From: a virus
Taxonomy: Duplodnaviria; Heunggongvirae; Uroviricota; Caudoviricetes
Virus record (IMG/VR): IMGVR_UViG_2609459844_000001
Coordinates: 1 to 14,560 of that record
Length of the DNA stretch: 14,560 bases
Strand: one strand, 5' to 3'
The notes under the pieces were generated by a model, which searched no databases, was not told the origin of the DNA, and was given only the letters and a program-made list of their open reading frames with translations. The position numbers were made by a program, and so were the translations under genes. This document shows positions 1-14,560 of the stretch, in pieces (within the stretch, counting starts at the first letter, position 1; each line of letters begins with the position of its first letter).

Positions 1-1
1 G

Positions 2-1450: not shown

Positions 1451-1600
1451 AAAGTGAGCCAGTCAAATGGAAGGTATCGTTAAACTCACCGGTAGTGTCA
1501 GTGGGTCGTCTGAGATGCCTGCATGAGTTATCAGAGCCATCAGTACTTAACTGGTGGCTTTTTTTATTGTTGTCAGCTTCCGGATAACGGGAGACGGGGT

Positions 1601-1816
1601 ATGTACCAGATGGAAAAAATCACAACAGGTGTGTCATACACCACGTCAGCGGTGGGAACGGGCTACTGGTTCCTGCAGTTGCTGGACAGGGTTTCCCCGT
1701 CTCAGTGGGCGGCAATAGGCGTGCTGGGGAGTCTGCTGTTTGGGCTGCTGACATATCTGACTAACCTGTATTTCAAAATCAGAGAGGACCGTCGTAAGGC
1801 TGCACGGGGAGAGTAA
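1601..1816 (+). CDS. S: Class II holin (phage 21 S21-type pinholin), 71 aa, with dual-start motif
   Basis: Translation [71 protein letters not shown] closely resembles the S21 pinholin as I recall it (two TM segments, charged C-terminus). Two Met codons at 1601 and 1610 (M-Y-Q-M) give the antiholin/holin dual start; GGGAGACGGGG lies just upstream. The track ORF starts further up at 1523, but that N-terminal extension has no holin-like sequence. Confidence 0.85.
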
Positions 1817-1820
1817 TTCA

Positions 1821-2627
1821 ATGACTCAAAACTATGAACTGATTGTGAAAGGGATCCGCAATTTTGAGAATAAAGTTACGGTAACTTTAGCGTTACGGGA
1901 CAAAAAACGCTTTGACGGTGAAATTTTTGACCTGGACATCTCGCTGGACCGTGTTGAAGGTGCCGCGCTGGAGTTTTATGAGGCAGCAGCCAGAAGGAGC
2001 ATCAGACAGGTCTTCCTGGATGTTGCTGCCGGGTTATGTGAAGGGGATGAGCTGTCGCCGGAAAAGCGCCCCATAATTTTAGAGGCGCAGGATGTGTTGA
2101 TAACCTACAAAGGAAAGCTACCGGGAAGAATTACTGGTTCTCTGAAGATGCCGCCGTCAACACTGCGGTCAGAAAAAGAGGCGTCTTGTCTGCAGTCTGA
2201 GTACTCCATTACGGTTAAAAGTGCCGGAGAGGAAGGAAATAAACGTTATTTTATTGCGTCTGCACCTGATAAAGATCAGGAATGGGAGTGTAACCGGCCA
2301 TCCTTTGTTGTATACGGAGATGGCGGGAAAATAACCATCTCAGAAAATGGGAAATTAACACCGCCATCGCACCAGCATAGTGAGGCGCTCATTGAATTTG
2401 CCATTGATTACCTGAAGAACAATAAAAAGCAGGGGCTGATGAAGCGCATTGGTCGTTGCATGGGATATCTGCAGGTAGCAGCTGAGATTGAAATGATGGC
2501 CAGTGGTGCTGACAATGATGCAGTTGTGCTGGAGGCTCTTCTGCGTGATTTTGATAATACGCCCTTTAAGAAAGCACCTGTTGACTGGATGCAGCCGGGG
2601 ATGACTTATCTGAAAGGGCGTATATAA
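1821..2627 (+). CDS. Hypothetical protein, 268 aa, unknown function (moron inserted between holin and endolysin)
   Basis: Clean 268-codon ORF whose ATG is 4 nt after the holin stop, with a GGGGAGAG Shine-Dalgarno-like sequence inside the holin 3' end (suggests translational coupling). No TM segment or signal peptide by eye. Visibly more AT-rich than flanking phage genes. I recognise no family. Confidence 0.6.
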   Translation: MTQNYELIVKGIRNFENKVTVTLALRDKKRFDGEIFDLDISLDRVEGAALEFYEAAARRSIRQVFLDVAAGLCEGDELSPEKRPIILEAQDVLITYKGKLPGRITGSLKMPPSTLRSEKEASCLQSEYSITVKSAGEEGNKRYFIASAPDKDQEWECNRPSFVVYGDGGKITISENGKLTPPSHQHSEALIEFAIDYLKNNKKQGLMKRIGRCMGYLQVAAEIEMMASGADNDAVVLEALLRDFDNTPFKKAPVDWMQPGMTYLKGRI

Positions 2628-2636
2628 GGTGGCTCG

Positions 2637-2951
2637 TTATCTGTTGCTGGATAATCGACTGAAGATGCGTTCTTTTTGTGTTTTTGCGTAATGATTGTCC
2701 CACTCACAATCAAGGTAGCTTAATTCTTCATTCAACCAGTTATTTATATTGGTCTTAATACGCATAAGCATGGGCTGTGTTAATGCTCTGGCGATAATGC
2801 CGAGAGTCACAGGTGTGAGATGTCCATACGGCTCAGCCTGAATGGATTTTACTGCATCGTGTTCTTGTGGGAGGAGTAAGAGGCACTCTGATTTTACCCG
2901 CTCATTTATGGCTTGCAGGCATAAATCATAATTATGTTGATCGTTATGCAT
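2637..2951 (-). CDS. Hypothetical protein, 104 aa, convergent partner of the 268-aa ORF
   Basis: Minus-strand ORF of 104 codons whose stop is about 10 nt from the stop of the 268-aa gene. AT-rich; no recognisable motif. Filling the gap between two same-strand lysis genes on the opposite strand is typical of an acquired moron. Confidence 0.45.
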   Translation of the reverse strand: MHNDQHNYDLCLQAINERVKSECLLLLPQEHDAVKSIQAEPYGHLTPVTLGIIARALTQPMLMRIKTNINNWLNEELSYLDCEWDNHYAKTQKERIFSRLSSNR

Positions 2952-3079
2952 GGTTAATCCTCTACTGAAATTGTCAGATATATTTCAGCCATCAGGAAAA
3001 ACGCCAGTGTCCTACCGCTGGCGGGCTGAAGATTTAACATATCCAGGGATTCGGAACCGATAAATCCTGATAAATATCC

Positions 3080-3613
3080 ATGAACACCAAAATCAAATAT
3101 GGCCTGTCGGCTGCCGTTCTGGCGTTGATTGCCATCGGTGCGCCTGCGCCTGATATTCTCGACCAGTTTCTGGATGAAAAAGAAGGTAACCACACAACGG
3201 CATACCGTGATGGTGCGGGTATCTGGACCATCTGCCGCGGTGCCACAATGGTGGATGGTAAACCTGTTATTCCGGGCATGAAACTGTCGAAGGAAAAATG
3301 CGACCAGGTTAATGCCATTGAACGGGATAAGGCGCTGGCATGGGTGGAGCGCAATATTAAAGTTCCACTGACCGAACCACAGAAAGCGGGTATAGCGTCA
3401 TTCTGTCCCTATAACATTGGCCCCGGTAAGTGTTTCCCGTCGACGTTTTATAAGCGGCTGAATGCTGGTGACCGCAGGGGAGCGTGTGAGGCGATTCGCT
3501 GGTGGATTAAGGACGGTGGCAGAGACTGCCGTATTCGTTCAAACAACTGCTACGGTCAGGTATCCCGTCGTGACCAGGAGAGCGCGCTGGCGTGCTGGGG
3601 TATCGACAGATAA
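3080..3613 (+). CDS. R: SAR endolysin (phage 21 R21-type lysozyme, T4-lysozyme-like fold)
   Basis: 177 aa. N-terminal Gly/Ala-rich weakly hydrophobic stretch (GLSAAVLALIAIGAPAP) consistent with a signal-anchor-release domain, then an E-x8-D-x5-T catalytic triad (E..GNHTTAYRD..GAGIWT) as in T4 lysozyme-type muramidases. Confidence 0.9.
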   Translation: MNTKIKYGLSAAVLALIAIGAPAPDILDQFLDEKEGNHTTAYRDGAGIWTICRGATMVDGKPVIPGMKLSKEKCDQVNAIERDKALAWVERNIKVPLTEPQKAGIASFCPYNIGPGKCFPSTFYKRLNAGDRRGACEAIRWWIKDGGRDCRIRSNNCYGQVSRRDQESALACWGIDR

Positions 3614-3701
3614 GCAGAATATTTTGCTGAAAAATAAGGCATGGCCACGCGGGCGGATAACACGAAATCCTGCGAACTGGCGAAACGTAAGTGAATAAAA
3701 G

Positions 3702-3745
3702 TAAAAACCCCGTTTGTTGGCAGCAAGCGGGGTTTTGTTTTTATG
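3702..3745 (+). terminator. Putative rho-independent terminator just after the endolysin gene
   Basis: AAAACCCCG ... CGGGGTTTT inverted repeat followed by TTTTGTTTTT on the + strand. The loop is long (about 15 nt), so stability is uncertain. Confidence 0.4.
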
Positions 3746-3807
3746 GCAGTAAGCTATGGGAGGCTGCCTTGATTGATTTTAGCAAACTGATTAGGGAGTT
3801 GCGACTC

Positions 3808-3903
3808 ATGATTAGTCAATTACCAAACTGGAAATTTTTGCTGGTCTGGAGCATCCCTTTTTTATGGGTAGTATCCCAGTTAATTGTGGCAATTAAGGGG
3901 TAG
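3808..3903 (+). CDS. Small hydrophobic peptide, 31 aa (speculative)
   Basis: ATG at 3808 preceded by AGGGAG at 9-nt spacing; translation MISQLPNWKFLLVWSIPFLWVVSQLIVAIKG is a single predicted TM helix. Too short to be confident. Confidence 0.2.
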   Translation: MISQLPNWKFLLVWSIPFLWVVSQLIVAIKG

Positions 3904-3905
3904 CT

Positions 3906-4037
3906 ATGTCAGACAAACTCATAACGCCGGCAAAGGTCCTGTGTGTGATTGTCGGTATTTCATTTTCACTAATGCTGGTTGCTCTTTTTCTGTCCCTCGC
4001 CTGGGTGATGTTGTCTTCGTCGGGGCTGCTGGGGTGA
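3906..4037 (+). CDS. Small membrane peptide, 43 aa (speculative); TM segment resembles the Rz N-terminal TM
   Basis: ATG at 3906 preceded by AAGGGG; translation MSDKLITPAKVLCVIVGISFSLMLVALFLSLAWVMLSSSGLLG. The KVLCVIVGISFSLMLVA stretch resembles [16 protein letters not shown] at the Rz N-terminus (4256). Confidence 0.3.
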   Translation: MSDKLITPAKVLCVIVGISFSLMLVALFLSLAWVMLSSSGLLG

Positions 4038-4156
4038 CAGTGACTGATGACATCAGCAGAGCGCTGGCTTTTGCTATTAAGTGGGTGGCTGTTGGTATTG
4101 CTGTGTCTCCGATGCTATATGGGCTGGCAAAACTGGTCATTGCGCTGAAATCGTGA
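4034..4156 (+). CDS. Small hydrophobic peptide, about 40 aa from a GTG start (speculative); paralogous to the next peptide
   Basis: Translation VTVTDDISRALAFAIKWVAVGIAVSPMLYGLAKLVIALKS. Shares the motif R-A-[LM]-A-F-A-I-[KR]-x-V-A-[VI] with the peptide at 4168-4254. Start codon uncertain. Confidence 0.25.
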   Translation: MTVTDDISRALAFAIKWVAVGIAVSPMLYGLAKLVIALKS

Positions 4157-4167
4157 ACTTTAAAAAG

Positions 4168-4254
4168 ATGAGTGCTGAACTTATTCGGGCAATGGCATTT
4201 GCCATTCGTATTGTGGCCATTGCTGTTCTGGTCTGGGCAATCCGTTGGTGGTGA
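4168..4254 (+). CDS. Small hydrophobic peptide, 28 aa (speculative); paralogous to the preceding peptide
   Basis: ATG at 4168; translation [28 protein letters not shown]. Ends 1 nt before the Rz start. Weak RBS. Confidence 0.25.
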
Positions 4255-4255
4255 T

Positions 4256-4723
4256 ATGAACCGTGTTCTGTGTGTGGTGATTATTGTCATGCTGGTGGCC
4301 TGTGGTGCGCTTAGTCTGGGGCTGAATCATTACCGTGATAACGCCATTACCTACAAAGCCCAGCGCGACAAAAATGTCAGAGAACTGAAGCTGGCGAACG
4401 CGGCAATTACTGACATGCAGATGCGTCAGCGTGATGTTGCTGCGCTCGATGCAAAATACTCGAGGGAATTAGCCGATGCGAGAGCTGAAAATGAAACTCT
4501 TCGCGCTGACGTTGCCGCTGGTCGTAAGCGCCTGCGTATCAACGCCACCTGTCCAGGTCCCGTGCGTGAAGCCACCGGCACCGCCCGCGTGGATAATGCA
4601 ACCGGCCCCCGACTGGCAGACACCGCTGAACGGGATTATTTCACCCTCAGAGAGCGGCTGATGACGATGCACAAGCAACTGGAAGGGGCGCAGGAATATA
4701 TCCGTACTCAGTGCCTGAAATAA
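4256..4723 (+). CDS. Rz: Spanin inner-membrane subunit (i-spanin)
   Basis: 155 aa from the ATG at 4256: N-terminal TM ([21 protein letters not shown]), then a charged coiled-coil-like periplasmic region ([26 protein letters not shown]). Embedded Rz1 in the +1 frame. Track ORF 4172-4723 is the same frame with a non-native N-terminal extension. Confidence 0.85.
4491..4661 (+). CDS. Rz1: Spanin outer-membrane lipoprotein subunit (o-spanin), embedded in Rz
   Basis: [15 protein letters not shown] lipoprotein signal with lipobox V-S-A-C, followed by a proline-rich mature region ([18 protein letters not shown]). Entirely inside Rz in a different frame, the classic Rz/Rz1 arrangement. Confidence 0.8.
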
Positions 4724-5073
4724 GTTTTGTTGATGCGCCGTATCGTCGCTGTATTCCCTCATTAACAGAGACCGCAGCCCGACAGGGAGACTCCTCTGCG
4801 CGAGTGTGCGGGGATAATCAAAAACGATACACACCGGGGTTTACCGCGTTAACGGAGCGCGGCGTTGTCCCCTCATAGTCGCCTGTCCGGTGCGATGGTG
4901 GAAGAAGCCGGATGTTTATCACTATTAATTGATGACACAGAAATGGATTCATTGAATTTCAGCACGTTTTTGTATTCGTGTTATTGAACATCTGTTTATT
5001 TTACTTTTAACATATTGATAATAAAAAGAGCTGTAAATCTTTAGATGAGTCGATTTTGTCCGGGGAAGTTCAA

Positions 5074-5214
5074 ATGGATTTTATGCTGACGGTTTCTGGT
5101 GTGGTTATCCTGTCCATTGCTTATACTGCAGATAAATATGGCTGCCATTTGTTATCACGTATTGGCGCTTATTGTTCGTTGATGCTGATTTTCTCGTCGC
5201 TTTTTTTTGAGTAA
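5074..5214 (+). CDS. Small hydrophobic peptide, 46 aa (speculative)
   Basis: ATG at 5074 preceded by GGGGAAG; translation MDFMLTVSGVVILSIAYTADKYGCHLLSRIGAYCSLMLIFSSLFFE. Lies in a strongly AT-rich spacer. Hand-translated; not in the supplied track. Confidence 0.2.
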   Translation: MDFMLTVSGVVILSIAYTADKYGCHLLSRIGAYCSLMLIFSSLFFE

Positions 5215-5346
5215 GTTATATTAATTATAACAAATAATTTTCTGTGTTATTTTTTCAGGCTATCCCGTCAGAGGGGAAGCCTGTACTGCCAGGGAGCGAA
5301 TGGAAAACTGATGTGTCCGGTAACTGCGTGTTCTGTGAACACCATG

Positions 5347-5532
5347 TTACTTAATTATGTAATTCATACCCGAACTCTCTGTTGACAGCCTTCTTCTGCA
5401 GGCTTCAATAACCCACGCTGAAAAGTTTCCTGAACCTTTCAGATCAAGAGCGATGTTAATTTGTTCAATCATCTGGTTTGGAAATCGGATGTTGCGGGTT
5501 GTTGTTCTGCGGGTTCTGTTCTTTGATGACAT
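5347..5532 (-). CDS. Small Arc/MetJ-like (ribbon-helix-helix) protein, probably DUF3950 family (YlcI/YnfO-like), 61 aa
   Basis: Translation ...TRNIRFPNQMIEQINIALDLKGSGNFSAWVIEACRRRL... has a basic N-terminus, a short beta-strand (NIRFP) and two helices, which is an RHH-like pattern. A similar small gene sits next to cos/terminase on the opposite strand in E. coli lambdoid prophages (recollection, not searched). Confidence 0.5.
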   Translation of the reverse strand: MSSKNRTRRTTTRNIRFPNQMIEQINIALDLKGSGNFSAWVIEACRRRLSTESSGMNYIIK

Positions 5533-5699
5533 AATGTTTCCCCATATTCAGTGTTGCTGATTTGTATTATCAGAAGTTGCTTTTACGTTAATTTGACGCA
5601 GATCAATTAATACGATACCTGCGTCATAATTGATTATTTCTCGTGGTTTGATGGCGTACACACATGTTGTGATAAACCTTATATAGATGATAATAATTA

Positions 5700-5920
5700 T
5701 CATTTCGTGGGTCCTTTCCGGCGATCCGACCGGTTACGGGGCGGCGACCTCGCGGGTTTTCGCTATTTATGAAAATTTTCCGGTTTAAGGCGTTTCCGTT
5801 CTTCTTCGTCATAACTTAATGTTTTTATTTAAAATACCCTCTGAAAAGAAAGGAAACGACAGGTGCTGAAAACGGGCTTTTTGGCCTCTGTCGTTTCCTT
5901 TCTCTGTTTTTGTCCGTGGA
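5700..5920. other. cos: Lambda-type cohesive end site (cosQ-cosN-cosB); 12-nt cohesive end GGGCGGCGACCT at 5738-5749
   Basis: 5738-5749 reads GGGCGGCGACCT, followed by CGCGGGTTTTCGCTATTTATGAAAATTTTCCGG..., which matches the left end of the lambda genome as I remember it. 5711-5737 (GTCCTTTCCGGCGATCCGAC.GGTTACG) matches the lambda right end (cosQ side). cosB R-element repeats include a 15-bp perfect inverted repeat, GAAAGGAAACGACAG at about 5850-5864 and CTGTCGTTTCCTTTC at about 5890-5904. Confidence 0.85.
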
Positions 5921-5927
5921 ATGAACA

Positions 5928-5990
5928 ATGGAAGTCAACAAAAAGCAGCTGGCTGACATTTTCGGCGCGAGTATGGGCGCTGGCCAATGA
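5928..5990 (+). pseudogene. nu1: Terminase small subunit nu1, 5' stub only (16 native codons, then a deletion junction and a stop)
   Basis: ATGGAAGTCAACAAAAAGCAGCTGGCTGACATTTTCGG.GCGAGTAT matches the lambda nu1 start (MEVNKKQLADIFGAS); similarity ends at about 5975 and the frame stops at 5988-5990. Confidence 0.7.
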
Positions 5991-5991
5991 C

Positions 5992-6696
5992 ATGAACTGC
6001 AGCGCAGGTCAGCTGCTTGCCAGTGCCGCCTCCCGGCGTCTGGTCACGCAGACCGCCCGGACAGGCTCCATCGGCGTCAAGGGCAAATACACCATGACCG
6101 GTGAAGCCTTCGATCCGGTTGAGGTGGATATGGGCCGCAGTGCGGCGAACAACATCACGCAGTCCGGCGGCACGGAGTGGAGCAAGCGTGACAAGTCCAC
6201 GTATGACCCGACCGACGATATCGAAGCCTACGCGCTGAACGCCAGCGGCGTGGTGAATATCATTGTGTTTGACCCGAAAGGCTGGGCGCTGTTCCGTTCC
6301 TTCAAAGCCGTCAGGGAGAAGCTGGATACCCGTCGCGGCTCTCATTCCGAACTGGAGACAGCGGTGAAAGACCTGGGCAAAGCGGTGTCTTATAAGGGAA
6401 TGTATGGCGATGTGGCCATCGTCGTGTATTCCGGACAGTACGTGGAAAACGGCGTCAAAAAGAACTTCCTGCCGGACAACACGATGGTGCTGGGTAACAC
6501 TCATGCACGCGGTCTGCGCACCTATGGCTGCATTCAGGATGCGGATGCACAGCGCGAAGGCATTAACGCCTCTGCCCGTTACCCGAAAAACTGGGTGACC
6601 ACCGGCGATCCGGCGCGTGAGTTCACCATGATTCAGTCAGCACCGCTGATGCTGCTGGCTGACCCTGATGAGTTCGTTTCCGTACAACTGGCGTAA
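5992..6696 (+). pseudogene. E: Major capsid protein E, N-terminally truncated (lambda-like sequence from about 6079 to the native stop)
   Basis: From KGKYTMTGEAFDPVEVDMGRS to the C-terminal ...LMLLADPDEFVSVQLA the translation is near-identical to the lambda gpE C-terminal region as I recall it. The sequence upstream of about 6079 is not E-like, and the stub of nu1 lies just upstream in another frame. Track ORF 5863-6696 is the same frame from a GTG. Confidence 0.8.
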
Positions 6697-6737
6697 TCGT
6701 GGCCCTTCTGGGCCATTGTTTCTCTGTGGAGGAGTCC

Positions 6738-7133
6738 ATGACGAAAGATGAACTGATTGCCCGTCTCCGCTCGCTGGGTGAACAACTGAACCGTGATATC
6801 AGCCTGACGGGGACGAAAGAAGAACTGGCGCTCCGTGTGGCAGAGCTGGAAGAAGAGCTTGATGACACGGGCGACACTGCCGGTCAGGATACCCCTCTCA
6901 GCCCGGAAAATGTGCTGACCGGACATGAAAATGAGGTTGTATCAGCGCAGCCGGATACCGTGACTGATACGGCTGATCTGGTCACGGTTGTGGCACTGGT
7001 GACGCTGCATACTGATGCACTTCACGCCACGCGGGATGAGGCTGTGGCATTTGTGCTGCCGGGAACGGCGTTCCGTGTCTCTGCCGGTGTGGCAGCTGAA
7101 ATGACAGAGCGCGGCCTGGCCAGAATGCAATAA
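6738..7133 (+). CDS. FI: DNA-packaging / head assembly protein FI
   Basis: MTKDELIARLRSLGEQLNRD...ERGLARMQ is near-identical to lambda gpFI; 41-nt gap after E, as in lambda. The track ORF starts 13 codons upstream at 6699. Confidence 0.9.
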   Translation: MTKDELIARLRSLGEQLNRDISLTGTKEELALRVAELEEELDDTGDTAGQDTPLSPENVLTGHENEVVSAQPDTVTDTADLVTVVALVTLHTDALHATRDEAVAFVLPGTAFRVSAGVAAEMTERGLARMQ

Positions 7134-7144
7134 CGGGAGGCGCT

Positions 7145-7498
7145 GTGGCTGATTTCGATAACCTGTTCGATGCTGCCATTGCCCGCGCCGATGAAACGAT
7201 ACGCGGGTACATGGGAACGTCAGCCACCATTACATCCGGTGAGCAGTCCGGTGCTGTGATACGTGGTGTTTTTGATGACCCTGAAAATATCAGCTATGCC
7301 GGACAGGGCGTGCGCGTTGAAGGCTCCAGCCCGTCCCTGTTTGTCCGGACTGATGATGTGCGGCAGCTGCGGCGCGGCGACACGCTGACCATCGGTGAGG
7401 AAAACTTCTGGATAGACCGGATTTCGCCGGATGATGGCGGAAGCTGTCATCTCTGGCTTGGGCGGGGCGTACCGCCTGCCGTTAACCGTCGCCGCTGA
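7145..7498 (+). CDS. FII: Head-tail joining protein FII
   Basis: MADFDNLFDAAIARADETIRGYMG...GRGVPPAVNRRR is near-identical to lambda gpFII (117 aa). Confidence 0.9.
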   Translation: MADFDNLFDAAIARADETIRGYMGTSATITSGEQSGAVIRGVFDDPENISYAGQGVRVEGSSPSLFVRTDDVRQLRRGDTLTIGEENFWIDRISPDDGGSCHLWLGRGVPPAVNRRR

Positions 7499-9095
7499 AA
7501 GGGGGATGTATGGCCATAAAAGGTCTTGAGCAGGCCGTTGAAAACCTCAGCCGTATCAGCAGAACGGCGGTGCCCGGTGCCGCCGCAATGGCCATTACCC
7601 GATCATTCGCATTGTCATTCGCTGCTTTAACTGCCTTCGGTGTCGCGGCAAGCGTTTCAGACGTACTGTTTGTCGCACTGCTGAGCTGTACTATCCCCTT
7701 TTTCGTCGTGCTCGCATCCTCAAGCGCCACGGCGGATGCAATATCCTCTGCCCGTTTTGCCGCTGTCTCAGCGCGCGTTGCTGCGGATTCTGCCGTACTT
7801 TTGCTCTGTGCTGCCGCTGTCGCACTGCCAGCAGCCTCTGTCGCCTTTGTGGATGCCGTCGTGGCGCTGCTCTTCGCTGCTGACGCCTGTCTGGTCGCCT
7901 CATCTTTTGAAGCAGACGCCGATGATGCCGATGACGCCGCCGAACTGGCGGACGATGCCGCTGCCGTTTTTGAGGATTCTGCGCTGGTTTCCGACGCTTT
8001 CGCGTTCGTTTCGGATGTCTTCGCTGAGGAAGCAGACCTCGCTGCTGCGCTGGCCTGTTCAGTGGCTTCGCCAGTCTTCGTTGTGGCTGTTGAAGCGGAT
8101 GATGCGGCGCTTTCTGCCGATTTTCCGGCGGCGGTGGCACTGACTGAGGCCTGCCCGGCACTTGTTGATGCGGCACTGGCGGACGACGCAGCCGCTGTTT
8201 TTGAATCTGCCGCAGCTGAGGCACTCTGTCCCGCTGCCGTTTCAGAAGACCTGGCGTTCGTCTCGGACGTTTTGGCCGCCTTCGCAGAATTTGCTGTCGC
8301 CGTTGCCGAGGAAGCTGCGCTGCTGGCGCTCGAGGCTGCGCTCGTTTCTGATGATTTTGCCGCCTCTTTTGAAGCCGACGCATCCCGGGCTGAGGTGGCA
8401 GCTTCTGACGCTTTCGTGGTCGCGGTGGATGCAGAAGTGGCTGCTGATTGTTGTGACGCTGCGGCATTCGTTTCTGACGTTTTCGCCGCAGCGGCACTGG
8501 TGGCCGCCGCGCTTTTTGAGGACTCTGCAGCGGCAGCACTTTTTTCCGCTTCAGTGGCCTTTGTTGATGCCGTTTCTGCGCTGGAAGACGCTGACTGAGC
8601 CGACGACGCGGCCTGTCCGGCTGACGTGCTGGCTGCGCGTGCTGAGCCTGCAGCATCAGTCGCATGGGTTGCCGCCTCACGGGCTGATGTGCTGGCATCG
8701 CCGGCTGACTTCTTCGCGGCTGCCGTGTTCTGTGCCACTGCGGACGCGTTACGCTCCACCTCTTCCACCATCACTTCAAAACGGCGCAGTGCCTCCGGTC
8801 GGACATCATCCTCCGTCATGGCACCGAGAAAATCATTCAGCGTACCTGGTCTGGAACCTTCATAGACGGTAATGGTCCCGGCATGTGAAGGCGGAAAACC
8901 TTCAACCAGCAGGGTGACGCTGTACTGACCATGCTCAACATCCATGCTGTAACGTCCGGCTTCATCCGGATTTTCAGAGGCCACCGTGTTCACCACCACC
9001 GTGCTGCTGGTTCGTCTGGCCTTCAGCACAATGGTGCAGTTCTGTACTGGTTTTCCTGTGCCATCTTTAAGCACGCCAGAAATTTTTACTGTCAT
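7482..9095 (-). CDS. stf: Side tail fiber protein (lambda Stf / prophage StfR-like), N-terminal about 510 aa; 3' end replaced by junction sequence
   Basis: N-terminus MTVKISGVLKDGTGKPVQNCTIVLKARRTSSTVVVNTVASENPDEAGRYSMDVEHGQYSVTLLVEGFPPSHAGTITVYEGSRPGTLNDFL and the following Ala/Ser/Thr-rich repeat region match lambdoid side tail fibers. The last about 30 codons (VMAIAAAPGTAVLL...) are the reverse translation of the Z fragment and FII 3' end, so the distal receptor-binding portion is missing. Confidence 0.8.
   Translation of the reverse strand: MTVKISGVLKDGTGKPVQNCTIVLKARRTSSTVVVNTVASENPDEAGRYSMDVEHGQYSVTLLVEGFPPSHAGTITVYEGSRPGTLNDFLGAMTEDDVRPEALRRFEVMVEEVERNASAVAQNTAAAKKSAGDASTSAREAATHATDAAGSARAASTSAGQAASSAQSASSSAETASTKATEAEKSAAAAESSKSAAATSAAAAKTSETNAAASQQSAATSASTATTKASEAATSARDASASKEAAKSSETSAASSASSAASSATATANSAKAAKTSETNARSSETAAGQSASAAADSKTAAASSASAASTSAGQASVSATAAGKSAESAASSASTATTKTGEATEQASAAARSASSAKTSETNAKASETSAESSKTAAASSASSAASSASSASASKDEATRQASAAKSSATTASTKATEAAGSATAAAQSKSTAESAATRAETAAKRAEDIASAVALEDASTTKKGIVQLSSATNSTSETLAATPKAVKAANDNANDRVMAIAAAPGTAVLLIRLRFSTACSRPFMAIHPPFSGDG
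7510..7597 (+). pseudogene. Z: Tail protein Z, 5' fragment (first 29 codons) ending at a rearrangement junction
   Basis: ATGGCCATAAAAGGTCTTGAGCAGGCCGTTGAAAACCTCAGCCGTATCAGC...GCAATGGCCATTA matches the lambda Z start (MAIKGLEQAVENLSRIS), 11 nt after FII as in lambda. Similarity stops at about 7597, where minus-strand tail-fibre coding sequence begins. Confidence 0.75.
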
Positions 9096-9107
9096 ACTTT
9101 TCCACCA

Positions 9108-9142
9108 ATAAAAAAAGCCCGCAGCAGTGACGCCACGGGCTT
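9108..9142 (-). terminator. Putative rho-independent terminator downstream of lom (minus strand)
   Basis: GCCCG ... CGGGC hairpin (9118-9141) preceded on the + strand by an 8-A run, which is a U-tract after the hairpin on the minus strand. Lies between the lom stop and the stf start. Confidence 0.4.
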
Positions 9143-9246
9143 CAGGACAGTGTAACTTTACGTTTCCTCAAACGCAGTTCACCCCATAAGGTGGATGAAC
9201 CTGCGTATCATAACAATATTTACAGAAGATAAATCGGCGTCTGTTG

Positions 9247-9846
9247 TCAGAAACGGTATCCGATACCAACAATAAATGCATCCGTTCGCCAGTCGCCACT
9301 ACCGGAACCTTCATAAGCAAGGTCAATGGTCACGGATTCGGTCGGATTAAACTGCACGCCAGCCCCCCACGCCAGAGACGTGTTGCTGTGGCGACCGTCA
9401 TCACTTCCGGTCAGCACATCGTGCGTTTTCCCCTTGTTGTCAGTTACGCGGAGATAATCCCCGGAGAAAGTCGAAATACGGCTGTAAGCCACACCCGCCA
9501 TCGCATACGCGCTGAACCATTCATTCACGCGCACAGACGGCCCCGCCATTACGCTGAACCAGCGGTTACGAACGGAATCTTCATGCCAGCGGGTATCGCT
9601 GTAACGGGTCAGCTGGCGATTCTTGTCTCCTGCATAGCTGAATGACGTCACCAGCCCCAGTGTGTCCGTAAACTCATAACGGTATTTCACGTTAATCCCG
9701 TTCAGATCATCACTGCCGGGGACGTTCGTCGAGGCATGAAGATACCCCGCGCTCAGCGTGGACTGATGTTCAGACGCCCATGCAGGCGCACCGGATACGG
9801 CCAGACAAATGGCTGCGGACAAAATTGCTGCACAAACTTTACGCAT
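9247..9846 (-). CDS. lom: Outer membrane protein Lom (Ail/Lom family beta-barrel)
   Basis: 199 aa with signal peptide (MRKVCAAILSAAICLAVSGAPAWA) and C-terminal ...DLAYEGSGSGDWRTDAFIVGIGYRF matching lambda Lom. Position between J and stf as in lambda. Confidence 0.85.
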   Translation of the reverse strand: MRKVCAAILSAAICLAVSGAPAWASEHQSTLSAGYLHASTNVPGSDDLNGINVKYRYEFTDTLGLVTSFSYAGDKNRQLTRYSDTRWHEDSVRNRWFSVMAGPSVRVNEWFSAYAMAGVAYSRISTFSGDYLRVTDNKGKTHDVLTGSDDGRHSNTSLAWGAGVQFNPTESVTIDLAYEGSGSGDWRTDAFIVGIGYRF

Positions 9847-9867
9847 AATTACCTCTCGCTTTTCTGC

Positions 9868-9896
9868 AATAAAAAAGGCGTCACTCCTGACGCCCT
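9868..9896 (-). terminator. Putative rho-independent terminator between J and lom (minus strand)
   Basis: GGCGTCA-CTCC-TGACGCC, a 7-bp perfect stem with a 4-nt loop, flanked by an A-run on one side and a T-rich run on the other. Confidence 0.4.
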
Positions 9897-9916
9897 TTAT
9901 TGGGGTTATAAATATT

Positions 9917-11072
9917 TCAACGAATACTGATGCCGGAAGCGGCTTTTTTGGTCACAATCACCGTACAGTCGGTGATATTGCCTGCCCCCTGATTGCCTTT
10001 CTGGAAAATCTTAAACTCCAGAGTGACGCTACCACCACCACTAGGCATATCAATAACTGCACTGTAACTACCGGGAATGGCCCCTTTAGTTTCTCTGGAT
10101 GCGATTAATACGCCGTTTTTGCGAACTTCAAAACCATAACCCGTGTATCGCGTGCCTCCTGGGTTATTTCCGCTCCCCGGATCGTCATACGCTATACCGT
10201 TAAAAATAATGGGCGGAATAATAATCTGGCGGTCAAAGTTATGATCATCGCTGATGGTGACTGTAACCGTACCGTTTGGTGTTTCCGTGTTACCCCACGT
10301 ACCGACTTTTTTCGGGAAGGCTTTTGATACAGCTTTAACGAAATCCCCTCTGACCTGGGTCGCCTCCAGCATGCCCTTAATCGTACAGTTCTGGTTAATC
10401 TTGACATTGTTGAGCGTTCCTGAGTTCGCATTCACACTGCCACTGATATCCGCATTTTTAGCGGTCAGCTTTCCGTCTGATGTCAGGGAAAATACCGGAG
10501 GACTGCCACCGCTGGTAATGGTGGGGGCCGTCAGGCGCTTCAGGAACACGTCGTTCATGAATATCTGGTTGCCCTGCGCCACAAACATCGGCGTTTCATT
10601 CCCGTTTGCCGGGTCAATAAACGCGATACGGTTAGCGGCAACCAGAAACTGGCTCAGCTTGCCTTCCTCCGTGTCCTCCATTCCTGTCACCCTTTGAGGT
10701 GTTTTCCACCAGTGCCTGTACACCGAAGGTAAAGCGCAGACGGTCGATGTTTGCAGACGTAATGGTGCGGGTGATCGGCGTGTCATATTTCACTTCCGTA
10801 CCCAGCACCGTCTCGGAGCCGGAGGATTCAAACCCCTCCGGCGGTGTCTGCTCCTGCTCACCGGCACGGAACACCACCGTGACACCGGAGATGTTGGTAT
10901 TCCCCTCAGTGTCCAGCACCGGCGTACTGTTCAGCAGCACGCTTTTTAATCCATCCACCGGACCTTCAACCGGCCCTTCGCTGATGGCATCGATCACACT
11001 CAGCAACTGCGTGGACTTCAGGTTGTCCTTCGCTTCGCGCGGGGTATGCCCCTTACTGCTTCCTTTACCCAT
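9917..11072 (-). pseudogene. J: Tail tip / host specificity protein J with a large internal deletion and frameshift
   Basis: ORF 10632-11072 (MGKGSSKGHTPREAKDNLKSTQLLSVIDAISEGPVEGPVDGLK...TSKGDRN) matches the J N-terminus for about 131 aa and then runs out of frame. ORF 9917-10786 matches the J C-terminal receptor-binding region from [29 protein letters not shown]... to the end. The two homology blocks abut at about 10680 in different frames. Confidence 0.8.
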
Positions 11073-11132
11073 TCCTCACGCTCCATAAATGACAAAACCG
11101 CCCGCAGGCGGTTTCACATAAAACATTTTGCA

Positions 11133-11804
11133 TCAGCGACCAATCACCACAACCTGACCACCGTCCCCTTCGTCTGCCGTGCTGATCTCCTGAGAAACCA
11201 CGCGTGACCCCACGCGCATTTCCCCGTACAGAACGGGCAGAACATTGCCCTGGGCAACCATATTATCCAGCGAAGAAAAATAGGTGTTCTGTTTGCCGTT
11301 ATCTGTTGCCTGTGTGCGGGGAGTTCTGGCTTTCGGTGCCAGCATCTGCGCCACACCACCGAGCACCATACTGGCACCGAGAGAAAACAGGATGCCGGTC
11401 ATCCCACCGGCCCCAATGGCTGCCCCCCATGCTGCAAGGGTGACTCCGGCGGTAAAGAATGATCCGGCAATGGCGGCAGCCCCCAGGACAATCTGGAATA
11501 CGCCACCTGACTTGGCCCCGGCGACTCTGGGAACAATATGAATCACAGCGCCATCAGGCAGAGTCTCATGTAACTGCGCCGTTAACCCGGACGTGCTGAC
11601 GTCCCGCCCGGCAATCCGTACCTGATACCAGCCGTCGCTCAGTTTCTGACGAAACGCCGGGAGCTGTGTGGCCAGTGCGCGGATGGCTTCAGCCCCCGTT
11701 TTCACACGAAGGTCGATGCGGCGGCCAAATCGTTGCAAATCCCCGTAAAGGCAGATGCGCGCCATGCCCGGTGACGCCAGAGGGAGTGTGTGCGTCGCTG
11801 CCAT
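11133..11804 (-). CDS. I: Tail tip assembly protein I
   Basis: 223 aa, MAATHTLPLASPGMARICLYGDLQRFGRRIDLRVKTG..., near-identical to lambda gpI; overlaps K by 103 nt and is followed by a 60-nt gap before J, both as in lambda. Confidence 0.9.
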   Translation of the reverse strand: MAATHTLPLASPGMARICLYGDLQRFGRRIDLRVKTGAEAIRALATQLPAFRQKLSDGWYQVRIAGRDVSTSGLTAQLHETLPDGAVIHIVPRVAGAKSGGVFQIVLGAAAIAGSFFTAGVTLAAWGAAIGAGGMTGILFSLGASMVLGGVAQMLAPKARTPRTQATDNGKQNTYFSSLDNMVAQGNVLPVLYGEMRVGSRVVSQEISTADEGDGGQVVVIGR

Positions 11805-12445
11805 TTGTCGGTGTACCTCTCTCGTTTGCTCAGTTGTTCAGGAATATGGTGCAGCAGCTCGCCGTCGCCGCAGTAAATGGCGGCGTGATTCGGCACCGAT
11901 GAACCAAAACAGCACAGCAGCACATCGCCCGGCTGTGCCGCTGACAACGGCACCTGATACAGCCCCGTCGCCTCCAGATTATCCAGATAGAGATTCTGAC
12001 CGTGACGCCACCAGTCATCCTCACGATGAAAGTCCGGCATCTCAATCCCCGCCAGATGATAAGCATCCCGGAACAGTGTGTAACAGTCCGTCACACCGTG
12101 CTCAAAGCGCCGCCCGGTGAGATGCGGCACACAGCGGAACTTATGAATCGTCCCCCGGCAGACCAGCCACCACGGCAAATCACTCTGCACCTGCAGCCGC
12201 CGGTCGGCCTCACTCAGCCAGGGCAGACCACCGGGGTGGCTGTGGACCAGCGCCACAATCTCACCCTGCATTTCTGCCTGCAGCCAGTCTTCCGGCGACA
12301 TACGGAAATACGCCTCCGGCTCACCGGAAATATTCATGCAGGGAAAATATCTTTCCCCCTCCGGCGTTCTCACCACGAAGCCGCACGACTCCGCTGGCGC
12401 ACATCGCCGGGCGTGCGCCAGAATCGCTGATTCTGTCTCTGTCAT
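11702..12445 (-). CDS. K: Tail tip assembly protein K (MPN/JAMM plus NlpC/P60 domains)
   Basis: Contains the JAMM motif H-S-H-x7-S-x2-D (ALVHSHPGGLPWLSEAD) and a C-terminal Cys/His region. The ORF from the ATG at 12445 (MTETESAILAHARR...) is 247 aa. The classical lambda annotation begins 48 codons later (MSPEDW..., at 12301, 199 aa); I prefer the longer start because the MPN fold needs the upstream residues. Confidence 0.85.
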   Translation of the reverse strand: MTETESAILAHARRCAPAESCGFVVRTPEGERYFPCMNISGEPEAYFRMSPEDWLQAEMQGEIVALVHSHPGGLPWLSEADRRLQVQSDLPWWLVCRGTIHKFRCVPHLTGRRFEHGVTDCYTLFRDAYHLAGIEMPDFHREDDWWRHGQNLYLDNLEATGLYQVPLSAAQPGDVLLCCFGSSVPNHAAIYCGDGELLHHIPEQLSKRERYTDKWQRRTHSLWRHRAWRASAFTGICNDLAAASTFV

Positions 12446-12449
12446 GGGA

Positions 12450-13148
12450 TTACTGCGAAAGTTTGTTAATGGAAAGGAAGCCGCCAAAGTTGCCGACGTT
12501 ATTGCGGAACTTACAGCCACCCAGGCATTTGCTGCATTTATCCTTCGTGATATCGGACGTCGGCTGGTCATATTCATCCGCGACAGCCGGACCGCTATAA
12601 CCGCACTCGTCACCGCGATAGGTCCAGGTGCAGGTGTTGGCCAGCATGATACGTCCCGGAAAAACAGCGCCATCCGTTTCCGTCGGCGTGGACAGTACAA
12701 AGGAGGCACTCACCGCGCTCAGTTCGCTGCACTGCTCGATGCGCCAGCGGCTGATCACCTCCTGCTCCGGATCGGCGTCACTGTTTCCGTTGACGAAGTT
12801 CACCGCATCCAGAAAACGGGCGTAAACCTTACGCCGGACCACCGTTCCGCCGACCAGACTCTGCAGATCTTCCGCCATCCCGGTGACCATACCGTACAGG
12901 TTAGAAACCGTCAGCGTGGGGCGCGTACTGGTGCCTTTGCCATTCAGTTCAAAACCGCTCCCCTGAATGGGATACGGCTGATACTGTCGCCCCTGCCAGG
13001 TGACCGGCTCACCTTTTTCGTTCTGCTCATTACAGAAAAAATAACGTTCTCCACCGACCTCTGTCAGGTCGATTTCCCAGAGCACCACGCTGGCCGACTG
13101 CTCCGCACGGGTGCATTCATTCAGTGTTTCCTGCCGGATATCCTGCAT
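12450..13148 (-). CDS. L: Minor tail protein L
   Basis: 232 aa, [72 protein letters not shown]..., matching lambda gpL; 1-nt overlap with M as in lambda. Confidence 0.9.
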   Translation of the reverse strand: MQDIRQETLNECTRAEQSASVVLWEIDLTEVGGERYFFCNEQNEKGEPVTWQGRQYQPYPIQGSGFELNGKGTSTRPTLTVSNLYGMVTGMAEDLQSLVGGTVVRRKVYARFLDAVNFVNGNSDADPEQEVISRWRIEQCSELSAVSASFVLSTPTETDGAVFPGRIMLANTCTWTYRGDECGYSGPAVADEYDQPTSDITKDKCSKCLGGCKFRNNVGNFGGFLSINKLSQ

Positions 13149-13477
13149 CAGTTCACCACCTGTTCAAACTCTGCGCTGAACTCAACACGCAGCATACTGA
13201 CCCGCGACGACCATTTTGCGCAGGTCACCTTTATCTGCCGCCACTCATAAGGCGGCGTCCACAGAAAGGATTTCCAGCCCCCGTGCTCTTCCAGAAACGA
13301 CTCCAGTACCGTGGCCTCCTCACGGGGGACAGAAAGCGTCACGCTGTACGTTTTCAGGTTGGCATTCAGCCCGGCAGGCGCTCGCTGGGAATAGCCATCA
13401 CCAAAGCGCACCTTTCTTACAGAAGGGGCCGAAGCCACATCCATACCGGGTTTCACTTTCCAGCGGAAGGTTTTCAT
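13148..13477 (-). CDS. M: Minor tail protein M
   Basis: 109 aa, [50 protein letters not shown]..., matching lambda gpM. Confidence 0.9.
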
Positions 13478-13815
13478 CGTCCACCTCCGGAGAACAGGCC
13501 ACCATCACGCATCTGTGTCTGAATTTCATCACGGGCACCCTTGCGGGCCATGTCATACACCGCCTTCAGAGCAGCCGGACCTATCTGCCCGTTCGTGCCG
13601 TCGTTGTTAATCACCACATGGTTATTCTGCTCAAACGTCCCGGACGCCTGCGACCGGCTGTCAGCCAGACTGCCCGGTGTCAGGTCTTTAACTTTAGCCA
13701 GACGCGACCAGTCAACGTCTGAAAGCGGGTTCGCATAAGGGTCGCCGCTCCCGTTATAAACCCACAGGGTGGTTCCGGCACCTTTCACCGGTATTGCTGG
13801 ATTTGGTACAGGCAT
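13474..13815 (-). CDS. Chimeric in-frame fusion: major tail protein V N-terminus (about 48 aa) joined to the tape measure protein H C-terminus (about 65 aa)
   Basis: From the ATG at 13815, [48 protein letters not shown] matches the lambda gpV N-terminus and then diverges. The ORF ends with an ATGA overlap onto M, exactly as the lambda H/M junction does, so the 3' part is taken to be the H 3' end. U-to-V spacing (7 nt) is lambda-like. The deletion removed most of V, all of G/T and most of H. Junction at about 13665-13675. Confidence 0.7.
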
Positions 13816-13822
13816 ATCGTCC

Positions 13823-14218
13823 TCACATTTCATAGGTAATGACATAAGTCAGATCGGCAGAACTCCACAGGCCCGCATCATCGTCGCGCCGGTAGTCATA
13901 GCCGCTGGCCACCATACTGGTGATCAAATCTGACAGTGCCGGGACATCGCTCATCACCGGATAAATCCGGGACTCCATCCACGAATCCAGCTCTGAATCC
14001 GGCACCTGAGCAGGCAGGAAAACTTCAATATGCAGCTCCGCCTGCCAGGTATCACTGTCCAGCTCTTCGCCCGTGTATTCAGCGCCGGTGAGATAAACGG
14101 CAATTGCCGGAAAATCCGCCTCATCAAAAACAGCGGGGCGACCATCAAAAAGCGTCGCCCCGGTGTCATGCTTCTCCAGTGCATCCAGTACGGCTGCACG
14201 GAGTTCAGTATGTTTCAT
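13823..14218 (-). CDS. U: Tail tube terminator protein U
   Basis: 131 aa, [67 protein letters not shown]..., near-identical to lambda gpU. Confidence 0.9.
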
Positions 14219-14560
14219 CGCTTTATTACCATTCTCAGTTGATGCTGCAGCGCATAGCCCAGCTCTTTCGGAAGACGTTCACGCCGTATCCGTTCAATAT
14301 TCTGTTTAAACGCCGTGGTAAGCGGCACCGCCATCGGGATTTTCACCACATCAATGGGGTAACGGTTTTTCCCGGCCACACGCTGCATGACATGCCACCG
14401 GCCATTTTTCAGTTGCTGAATAAACGCGCCGGGAATACGACGGTTTCCCACCACAAGCACGCTGCCGCCACCTTTCAGGGATGAACGCTGCCCCTTTTTA
14501 CGACGTCTGCGGCGGGAAAGGACAACCCGCGCGTTACCCAGCTTGATTACGGGCAAATCC
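14215..14560 (-). CDS. Z: Tail protein Z, 3' portion (partial; the ORF continues past the window end towards its 5' side)
   Basis: Minus-strand translation ...[112 protein letters not shown] matches the lambda gpZ C-terminal two-thirds; 4-nt overlap with U as in lambda. Confidence 0.8.
   Translation of the reverse strand, partial: DLPVIKLGNARVVLSRRRRRKKGQRSSLKGGGSVLVVGNRRIPGAFIQQLKNGRWHVMQRVAGKNRYPIDVVKIPMAVPLTTAFKQNIERIRRERLPKELGYALQHQLRMVIKR

What the first reader, a model, noticed from the sequence alone, without database searches (positions are those of the whole stretch)
7498..7612. Strand-switch junction inside Z: tail-gene block is inverted relative to head genes
The first 88 nt of Z follow FII on the + strand with native spacing. 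At about 7597 the sequence becomes minus-strand stf coding sequence, and the whole tail block (stf, lom, J, I, K, L, M, V/H, U, Z 3' part) runs leftward to the window end. The simplest model is one inversion with breakpoints inside Z and inside stf. This predicts that just right of the window the rest of Z (minus strand) abuts the distal stf portion and tfa (plus strand). An invertase-mediated or IS-mediated event would leave recognisable sites there.
Basis: partly seen in the sequence, partly recalled or inferred. Interest (0 to 1): 0.55.

Follow-up and report, generated by a model that had tools for sequence, protein, structure and literature searches.

The report
Inverted tail block in scarred prophage
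A defective lambda-like prophage in one E. coli isolate has its tail genes flipped relative to its head genes, and the break in tail gene Z lies at a two-base TA that is also a breakpoint in at least 14 other, independent prophage rearrangements.

Summary
The strand switch is real. Z nt 1-88 follows FII with the native 11-nt spacing. At the TA at 7596-7597 the sequence becomes antisense stf (codons 500 to 1), followed by lom, J, I, K, L, M, H'/V', U and Z nt 234-579.

The window is the whole contig JNPF01000030.1 of E. coli 2-156-04_S3_C1, so the predicted reciprocal joint cannot be read. Compared with the intact prophage of E. coli AF39 (99.8-100% identical), the contig shows one strand switch and four deletions. 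All five joints have 2-4 nt of microhomology. No IS end or flanking inverted repeat is present, and the closest intact relative carries no invertase gene.

The same assembly also holds a second remnant prophage (R) and a 1,280-bp contig with stf intact across the breakpoint. Contig ends fall where the two prophage copies diverge (k = 70). The joint is therefore not a repeat-driven mis-join.

A simple reciprocal inversion is the most economical model but is unproven. E. coli TW14425 carries a nucleotide-perfect 17.4-kb inversion with one end at the same Z TA. That TA is a breakpoint in at least 14 other independent rearrangements, and every identified partner site also has TA. The responsible activity is unknown.

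The prophage scar itself is ordinary. The recurrent breakpoint deserves follow-up.

The parts
1..5974 (+). Late region of prophage P': SASA-family esterase 3' part, holin, DUF1327 protein, lysozyme, Rz-like lysis gene, cosN (5739-5750), cosB, and Nu1 nt 1-47 (Nu1 starts at 5928).
   Evidence: 100.000% identical to the AF39 prophage, L002 44973..39000. Pfam labels are. cosN was located.
5971..5974 (.). Deletion joint 1, Nu1|C. Microhomology GTAT; 4,649 bp missing.
5971..6079 (+). 109-bp fragment of gene C (S49 protease / Nu3 region) kept between two deletions.
   Evidence: 100% identical to L002 34354..34246.
6077..6079 (.). Deletion joint 2, C|E. Microhomology TCA; 1,552 bp missing.
6077..7597 (+). 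E C-terminal 206 codons, FI (6738-7133), FII (7145-7498), and Z nt 1-88 (7510-7597).
   Evidence: Identical to L002 32696..31176. Pfam PF03864, PF14000 and PF05354.
7596..7597 (.). Strand-switch joint. The TA is shared by Z (nt 87-88) and stf (nt 1499-1500). The imperfect wider match is TA-A-CCG in Z against TA-C-CCG in stf.
7596..10681 (-). stf codons 1-500 (start at 9095), lom (9247-9846), and the J 3' 765 nt.
   Evidence: 100.000% identical to remnant prophage R, and 5 SNPs from AF39.
10680..10681 (.). Deletion joint 3, inside J. Microhomology AT; 2,258 bp missing; causes a frameshift.
10680..13680 (-). J 5' 393 nt, I, K, L, M, and the H 3' 207 nt.
   Evidence: 100% identical to L002 23343..26343.
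13679..13680 (.). Deletion joint 4, H|V. Microhomology GT (7 of 9 imperfect); 3,807 bp missing. It creates an in-frame 113-aa V'-H' fusion.
13672..14560 (-). V nt 1-137, U (13823-14218), and Z nt 234-579. The contig ends at the last base shared by intact Z and the Nu1|Z joint of remnant R.

Best explanation
The contig is a real, strain-specific, non-functional derivative (P') of a lambda-like prophage that is almost identical to the one in E. coli AF39. Its tail block, from stf nt 1500 back to Z nt 89, was inverted by a breakage-and-reunion event. The crossover lies in a shared TA dinucleotide, at Z nt 87-88 and stf nt 1499-1500. Four further deletions (Nu1-C, C-E, inside J, H-V) arose by short-microhomology illegitimate recombination.

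Shown:
- the five joints and their 2-4 nt microhomologies;
- the absence of IS or invertase signatures;
- the presence in the same genome of a second remnant prophage R and of an intact stf copy;
- the recurrence of the Z TA as a breakpoint elsewhere;
- a perfectly conservative inversion at that TA in TW14425.

Inferred:
- the window's event was a simple reciprocal inversion, in which the rest of Z abuts distal stf and tfa;
- the exchange was conservative with a 2-nt stagger;
- the rearrangements are recent, because there are no substitutions in the 10.6 kb that is P-specific.
For: -: six collinear pieces match the AF39 prophage at 99.8-100%, with one change of strand.
- the exact joints. The only true SNPs are 1 in stf and 4 in lom.
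- chance gives 2 nt or more of microhomology in 16% of random joints, so P for five of five is about 1e-4. The contig begins exactly 69 nt before the first P-versus-R difference.
- the same assembly carries R-specific V' and J' proteins, and contig 80 has stf intact across the breakpoint. Contig 80's ends sit 69 nt past one R/AF39 SNP and 1 nt before another.
- the contig's last base is the last base shared by R's Nu1|Z joint and native Z. That marks a fork, which implies native Z continues in P'.
- the joint and the fusion proteins are unique to this assembly.
- the TW14425 inversion between the same Z TA and a TA in an ash-family gene. Flipping 17,435 bp restores both genes exactly.
- about 14 other independent joints lie at the same TA. 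All 6 partner sites identified (the window's stf among them) have TA, as does the ash site of TW14425.
Against: - The reciprocal Z(89..)|stf(1501..) joint was not seen. It cannot be seen in this record, and the protein look-ups for it were negative with a failed control.
- Pieces 7596-10681 and 13672-14560 are repeats shared with remnant R, so their linkage to the unique flanks in this short-read contig rests on elimination (R assumed intact as in other genomes), not on spanning reads.
- The contig carries R-type alleles at the 5 SNPs. This needs either mis-phasing by the assembler or a P' that truly has those alleles.
- Five joints with no substitutions could also reflect a single complex event.
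Confidence: 0.6

Rival explanations
1. The joint is real but is not a simple intra-prophage inversion. It could be part of a complex multi-break or template-switching event (MMBIR-like) with no exact reciprocal joint. Alternatively it could be an exchange between prophage P and remnant R at another chromosomal site, which would imply a larger chromosomal rearrangement.
For: - Five novel joints sit in 27 kb of parental sequence with zero substitutions in 10.6 kb of P-specific DNA, including a 109-bp island between two deletions.
- The inverted pieces are 100% R-type at all 5 SNPs.
- R is present in the same genome.
- The contig ends at R's own Nu1|Z joint.
Against: - Apart from the one flip, segment order is perfectly preserved, unlike random re-ligation.
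- An intact R-type stf spanning the breakpoint exists (contig 80).
- R-specific V'|J' proteins are annotated, so R appears undisturbed.
- The bubble-like contig ends imply a second, AF39-type allele of both proximal and distal stf.
- The TW14425 event at the same TA is a clean reciprocal inversion.
Confidence: 0.22
2. The strand switch is an assembly artefact: a chimeric contig built by the short-read assembler from two prophages.
For: - It comes from a single 2014 draft assembly.
- The joint occurs nowhere else.
- Two of the six pieces are repeats shared with R.
- The fusion proteins are singletons among about 15 billion proteins.
Against: - The parents share only 2-4 nt at each joint. Graph or overlap assemblers mis-join at shared words of tens of bases, and the contig ends here behave as k = 70.
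- Joint-spanning 70-mers must therefore be present repeatedly in the reads.
- The contig runs unbroken through five joints, so the parental continuations are absent from the reads.
- The joint uses a dinucleotide that is a bona fide breakpoint in other, independent assemblies, including a complete genome.
Confidence: 0.08
3. The inversion was made by a canonical tail-fibre invertase (Pin/Gin/Cin/Hin family), or by an insertion sequence.
For: - Related phages carry a Pin-type serine recombinase next to tfa (PhiR34_1).
- The 2-bp identical crossover (TA) fits the 2-nt stagger of serine recombinases.
Against: - The closest intact relative has no pin gene in the 49-kb region shown.
- Neither breakpoint lies in the C-terminal stf/tfa invertible region.
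- No 26-bp site and no inverted repeat is present at 7597.
- From my own recall of published sites, Din-family sites have asymmetric cores (AA, GA), not TA. The Z site matches only about half of a recalled cix half-site, and in the wrong register.
- No IS sequence lies at any joint.
Confidence: 0.05

Closest known systems
Intact lambda-like prophage of E. coli AF39 (NZ_OZ547136.1, 4,791-4,822 kb)
   Same: 99.8-100% nucleotide identity over every piece of the window, with the same gene set and order.
   Different: AF39 has none of the five joints. All of its late genes lie on one strand and are complete.
Inverted prophage block in E. coli TW14425 (NZ_CP127265.1, 1,357,961-1,375,395)
   Same: One breakpoint is the identical TA of gene Z (nt 87-88). 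TA is present at both joints and head genes end up opposed to tail genes.
   Different: The partner site is in an ash-family early gene, not stf. The inverted block is 17.4 kb and holds the early, lysis and head genes. Both joints are visible and exactly reciprocal, and there are no extra deletions.
Remnant prophage R next to potB-pepT-phoQ (for example GCA_020857475.1, and also in this strain)
   Same: It shares the Z'-U-V' and J'-lom-stf sequences at 100% identity, and it is also a deletion derivative with microhomology joints.
   Different: R has other joints (Nu1 nt 69|Z nt 234, and V'|J'). It has no strand switch, and its lysis-cos region is only 97-98% identical.
Short-homology illegitimate recombination in lambda and E. 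coli (Ikeda-type events, alternative end-joining)
   Same: Joints between non-homologous sequences share 2-4 nt of microhomology, and the outcomes are deletions and inversions. The comparison rests on established knowledge, not on a test made here.
   Different: Those processes are not expected to reuse one dinucleotide repeatedly, nor to be conservative to the nucleotide as in TW14425.
Pin/Gin/Cin/Hin invertible tail-fibre segments
   Same: They invert DNA in the tail-fibre region of phages, and their crossover overlap is 2 bp.
   Different: No recombinase gene, no 26-bp sites and no enhancer context were found. The breakpoints are in Z and mid-stf, and the TA core is palindromic.

Membership tests
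Lambda-like prophage late operon | Gene order lysis-cos-Nu1-A-W-B-C-D-E-FI-FII-Z-U-V-G-T-H-M-L-K-I-J-lom-stf-tfa, with matching protein families. | tested here: met
   The pieces map collinearly to annotated PhiR34_1 and AF39 prophages. Pfam hits on the called genes are. cosN was found. Many genes are truncated or missing.
Functional (inducible) prophage | Complete terminase, portal, capsid, tail tube, tape measure and J genes. | tested here: not met
   A, W, B, D, G and T are absent. C, E, V, H and J are truncated.
Pin/Gin/Hin/Cin invertible segment | A serine invertase gene adjacent to the segment. | tested here: not met
   No such gene is among the called genes of the window, and none is annotated in AF39's 49-kb prophage region. 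A pin gene elsewhere in the strain was not testable.
Pin/Gin/Hin/Cin invertible segment | About 26-bp crossover sites as inverted repeats at both ends of the inverted DNA. | tested here: not met
   No inverted repeat involves 7597. The other end lies outside the contig.
Pin/Gin/Hin/Cin invertible segment | An identical 2-bp core at the crossover. | tested here: met
   TA is present in both parents. However, the core is palindromic, unlike the Din-family cores as I recall them.
IS-mediated inversion | An IS copy at the joint(s), with target duplication. | tested here: not met
   Every base of the window aligns to prophage DNA and no IS end is present. The reciprocal joint was not testable.
Microhomology-mediated illegitimate recombination scar | A joint between unrelated sequences that share only a few nt, more than chance would give. 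| tested here: met
   The five joints have 2, 2, 2, 3 and 4 nt of microhomology. P is about 1e-4 for all five having 2 nt or more.
Simple reciprocal inversion | A second joint that joins the two complementary ends, Z nt 89.. to stf nt 1501... | not testable with these tools
   The window is a whole contig. The predicted ORFs were not in the protein collection, but the control also failed. The predicted joint is not in IMG/VR.
Repeat-driven assembly chimera | The joint coincides with a sequence shared by the two parents that is about as long as the assembler's word or overlap. | tested here: not met
   The parents share only 2-4 nt, whereas the contig ends behave as k = 70.
Conservative site-specific recombination at the Z TA site | The same crossover nucleotides are used in independent events, with reciprocal products and no gain or loss of bases. 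| tested here: inconclusive
   Recurrence was shown. Exact reciprocity was shown for one event only, in TW14425. No recombinase was identified, and reciprocity is unknown for the window.

The most novel reading that the evidence does not exclude
The TA at nt 87-88 of the lambdoid tail gene Z (context GGCCAT-TA-ACCGCG) is the target of an unidentified sequence-selective, conservative breakage-reunion activity with a 2-nt stagger. The activity would be serine-recombinase-like. It would repeatedly exchange this site with other TA sites (often GGA-TA-YCCG) and so produce deletions and inversions that disable lambdoid prophages. The window's strand switch would be one such product.
Probability: 0.3. 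Interest if true: 0.7.

Novelty: new member of a known kind. Interest (0 to 1): 0.45.

Why it matters
As a prophage scar, this shows how a lambda-like prophage was disabled within a very short evolutionary time: five joints and no point substitutions. It also shows how draft contigs of multi-prophage genomes should be read, because contig ends mark the points where prophage copies diverge.

The wider point is the breakpoint. One dinucleotide in gene Z recurs as a rearrangement endpoint in many unrelated E. coli prophages, always paired with another TA, and in one complete genome the exchange is exact to the base. If this reflects a specific enzyme, it would be an unrecognised route of prophage domestication and mosaicism. 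It would also be directly testable with a plasmid that carries the Z site.

Tried and rejected
- Searching the 40-nt joint in GTDB representative genomes, IMG/VR and JGI metagenomes found nothing.
- An exact look-up of the 537-aa chimeric Stf found nothing, because the submitters' annotation calls antisense ORFs there.
- A homolog search to recover R's Nu1-Z fusion as a usable id failed, because that protein is not a cluster representative.
- Nine predicted ORFs across the hypothetical reciprocal joint were not in the collection. The positive control also failed, so the result is uninformative.
- A literature search for the accession and strain gave only the sibling accession series and the institute's usual methods. 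MaSuRCA with 100-bp reads was described for another project, so it is an inference for this strain. A search for a known hotspot found nothing relevant.
- A hairpin at the Z site as a replication-stall explanation was rejected. Fold energies are no better than shuffles (z = -0.8 and +0.6).
- Gyrase-type 4-bp stagger was rejected. The products predicted for either daughter duplex do not match the observed CCATTA|CCCG.
- RusA cutting 5' of CC was rejected for the same reason.
- Other candidates did not fit the sites: BstEII-like or other restriction sites, lambda Int core, integron GTT, the IS5 YTAR target, and Ter or telomere-resolvase resemblance.
- My first guess that a second cluster of fusions at Z residue 117 shares the heptamer TAACCGC was wrong. 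The DNA there reads GGAAACCGTCG.
- The metagenome scan added only one SNP allele and one duplicate event.

Full report
**What is in the window.** FII ends at 7498. Z begins at 7510 after the native 11-nt spacer. A comparison with 5,426 complete E. coli genomes split the region 7000-8200 into two halves that never occur together. FI-FII-Z matches up to about 7601, and the 5' part of stf (the prophage tail-fibre N-terminal region), read in reverse, matches from 7596. Against annotated phages, the right half of the window (about 6.95 kb) maps onto about 13 kb of tail genes in four or five pieces, so it carries internal deletions.

**The parental arrangement.** The closest relative is an intact prophage of E. 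coli AF39. The window is six pieces of that prophage:

| Window | AF39 locus L002 | Orientation | Content |
|---|---|---|---|
| 1-5974 | 44973..39000 | reversed | esterase, lysis genes, cos, Nu1 nt 1-47 |
| 5971-6079 | 34354..34246 | reversed | 109 bp of C |
| 6077-7601 | 32696..31172 | reversed | E', FI, FII, Z 5' end |
| 7596-10681 | 18001..21086 | forward | stf codons 1-500, lom, J 3' end |
| 10680-13680 | 23343..26343 | forward | J 5' end, I, K, L, M, H 3' end |
| 13672-14560 | 30142..31030 | forward | V 5' end, U, Z nt 234-579 |

- Base-by-base inspection gives exact microhomologies at the joints: GTAT, TCA, TA, AT and GT.
- Only five true substitutions separate the window from AF39, one in stf and four in lom.
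- Random joints in this sequence have 2 nt or more of microhomology 16% of the time, so five of five has P of about 1e-4.
- No inverted repeat involves the strand switch.
- Every base aligns to prophage DNA, so no IS end is present.
- cosN lies inside the contig at 5739-5750, which fits a prophage or circular gene order.

**Where the window comes from.**
- The 40-nt joint is absent from GTDB representative genomes, IMG/VR and JGI metagenomes.
- Exact look-ups of two fusion proteins identified the source as NCBI GCA_000703525.1, contig JNPF01000030.1, length 14,560 bp. That is the entire window.
- The strain is E. coli 2-156-04_S3_C1, and the fusion proteins are singletons in the protein collection.

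**A second prophage explains the contig's ends.**
- The window's Lom variant led to a remnant prophage, R, next to potB-pepT-phoQ in a few other assemblies. Its structure is cos-Nu1(1-69)|Z(234-end)-U-V'|J'(346 aa)-lom-stf-tfa.
- Window 7596-10681 is 100.000% identical to R, whereas AF39 differs there at 5 sites. The contig's last base is exactly the last base shared by native Z and R's Nu1|Z joint.
- R-specific V' and J' proteins are annotated in the same strain as KDV96998.1 and KDV97001.1.
- A second contig of the same assembly, JNPF01000080.1 (1,280 bp), carries stf intact across the breakpoint and is 100% R-type. One of its ends lies 69 nt beyond an R/AF39 SNP, and the other lies 1 nt before the next such SNP.
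- The window itself starts exactly 69 nt before the first base at which it differs from R, and AF39 and R are identical for at least 300 nt upstream of that point.
- These ends behave like de Bruijn bubble and fork boundaries with k = 70.

I infer three things from this:
1. The genome holds both R and a rearranged AF39-type prophage, P'.
2. Both alleles of proximal and distal stf are probably in the reads.
3. At base 14560 there is a fork between R's Nu1' and a continuation of native Z.

A mis-join by an assembler would need tens of shared bases, but each joint has only 2-4. The unbroken run through five joints means the parental continuations are absent from the reads. The linkage of the shared pieces to the unique flanks rests on elimination, with R taken to be intact as it is elsewhere.

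**The reciprocal joint.** I predicted ORFs across Z(89..)|stf(1501..) and looked them up by exact sequence. None was found. A control ORF known from another locus was also not found, so the test is void. The predicted joint is not in IMG/VR.

**A recurrent breakpoint.**
- A homolog search made for another purpose returned many Z fusion proteins.
- Among 17 clusters that have a foreign N-terminus or an N-terminal truncation, 7 join exactly before Z residue N30. That is the window's breakpoint.
- At the DNA level, ten distinct joints keep the Z 3' part as X-TA|ACCGCG: L026-L034 and L077. Three others keep the 5' part as CCATTA|X: L037, L041 and L043. The window makes a fourth of that kind.
- The identified partners are E, the lysozyme gene R, terminase (three different places), the L/M boundary, and stf in the window. 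In all six cases where the native partner sequence is known, the partner also has TA at the crossover. Five of the six are deletions, and the window is the only strand switch among them.
- L031 and L037 come from one genome. Joining their foreign flanks through a single TA recreates a sequence found intact, 602 of 602 nt, in many E. coli genomes.
- The complete genome of E. coli TW14425 shows that same event in full. A 17,435-bp block between the Z TA and a TA in an ash-family gene is inverted, and flipping it back restores Z exactly.

So a conservative, reciprocal inversion at this very dinucleotide exists.

**Mechanism.** The TA-only overlap always falls in the same register, and TW14425 is exactly reciprocal. 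Together these fit a 2-nt staggered breakage-reunion better than end-joining or template switching. A 4-bp gyrase-type stagger and RusA-type cutting predict products that are not observed. The site forms no significant hairpin. No recombinase gene lies in the AF39 or TW14425 prophage regions that I viewed. The enzyme is unknown, and a merely fragile site plus microhomology is not excluded. The other four joints of the window are not at TA hotspots and look like ordinary short-homology deletions.

**Verdict.**
- The inversion model is the most economical one and has an exact precedent, but it is unproven here.
- The invertase or IS idea is not supported in its canonical form.
- The object is an ordinary kind of thing, a decayed prophage. 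It carries an unusually dense and recent set of scars, and one of its breakpoints coincides with a previously unremarked recurrent crossover site.

Noticed in passing
window 7596-7597; loci L026-L034, L037, L041, L043, L077, L168: The TA at Z nt 87-88 is a rearrangement endpoint in about 14 other independent events, both deletions and an inversion. Wherever the native partner sequence is known, it also has TA (often GGA-TA-YCCG). Seven of 17 Z fusion-protein clusters join exactly before residue N30.
   Followed up: partly
L168 2792-20250 (E. coli TW14425, NZ_CP127265.1): A complete genome carries a 17,435-bp inversion inside a lambdoid prophage, between the Z TA and a TA in an ash-family gene. 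It is exactly reciprocal with no base gained or lost.
   Followed up: yes
L068 and L087, Z nt ~540; P0053 and P0055: Another joint of the form ...GGGCTA|ACCGAATC... links Z nt ~540 to a TAACCG site in J. Two protein clusters contain only Z residues 30-180 with foreign sequence on both sides. This hints that TA followed by ACCG is a preferred site in more than one gene.
   Followed up: no
window 13672-14560 and 7596-10681; L005-L014: A remnant prophage next to potB-pepT-phoQ (Nu1'|Z'-U-V'|J'-lom-stf-tfa) is present in the same strain and in a few draft and metagenome assemblies. Its Nu1|Z joint was not found in any of 5,426 complete E. coli genomes.
   Followed up: partly
window 1, window 14560, L025 ends: Contig ends fall exactly 69 nt from, or 1 nt before, the positions where the two prophage copies differ. 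This implies a word size of 70 and shows that contig boundaries in this draft mark allele bubbles between prophages.
   Followed up: yes
window 7510-8598 (+) and 7801-8598 (+): The Z start codon is in frame with a long antisense ORF of stf, giving a spurious 362-aa ORF. The submitters' annotation calls a 265-aa antisense ORF and a 44-aa ORF instead of the truncated stf.
   Followed up: partly
window 13474-13815 (-): The H-V deletion is in frame and creates a 113-aa V(1-45)-H(C-terminal 68) fusion. This protein is unique to the strain in the protein collection.
   Followed up: partly
window 5739-5903: cosN (GGGCGGCGACCT) lies at 5739-5750, and a 26-nt inverted repeat (85% complementary) lies at 5847-5903. 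From my recall of the lambda sequence, the repeat corresponds to terminase-binding sites of cosB. Both lie intact just upstream of a Nu1 gene that is cut after 47 nt.
   Followed up: partly
window 9346-9489: Four of the five differences from the AF39 prophage cluster within 144 bp of lom and match remnant R. This suggests either a conversion patch or mis-phasing between the two lom copies by the assembler.
   Followed up: partly
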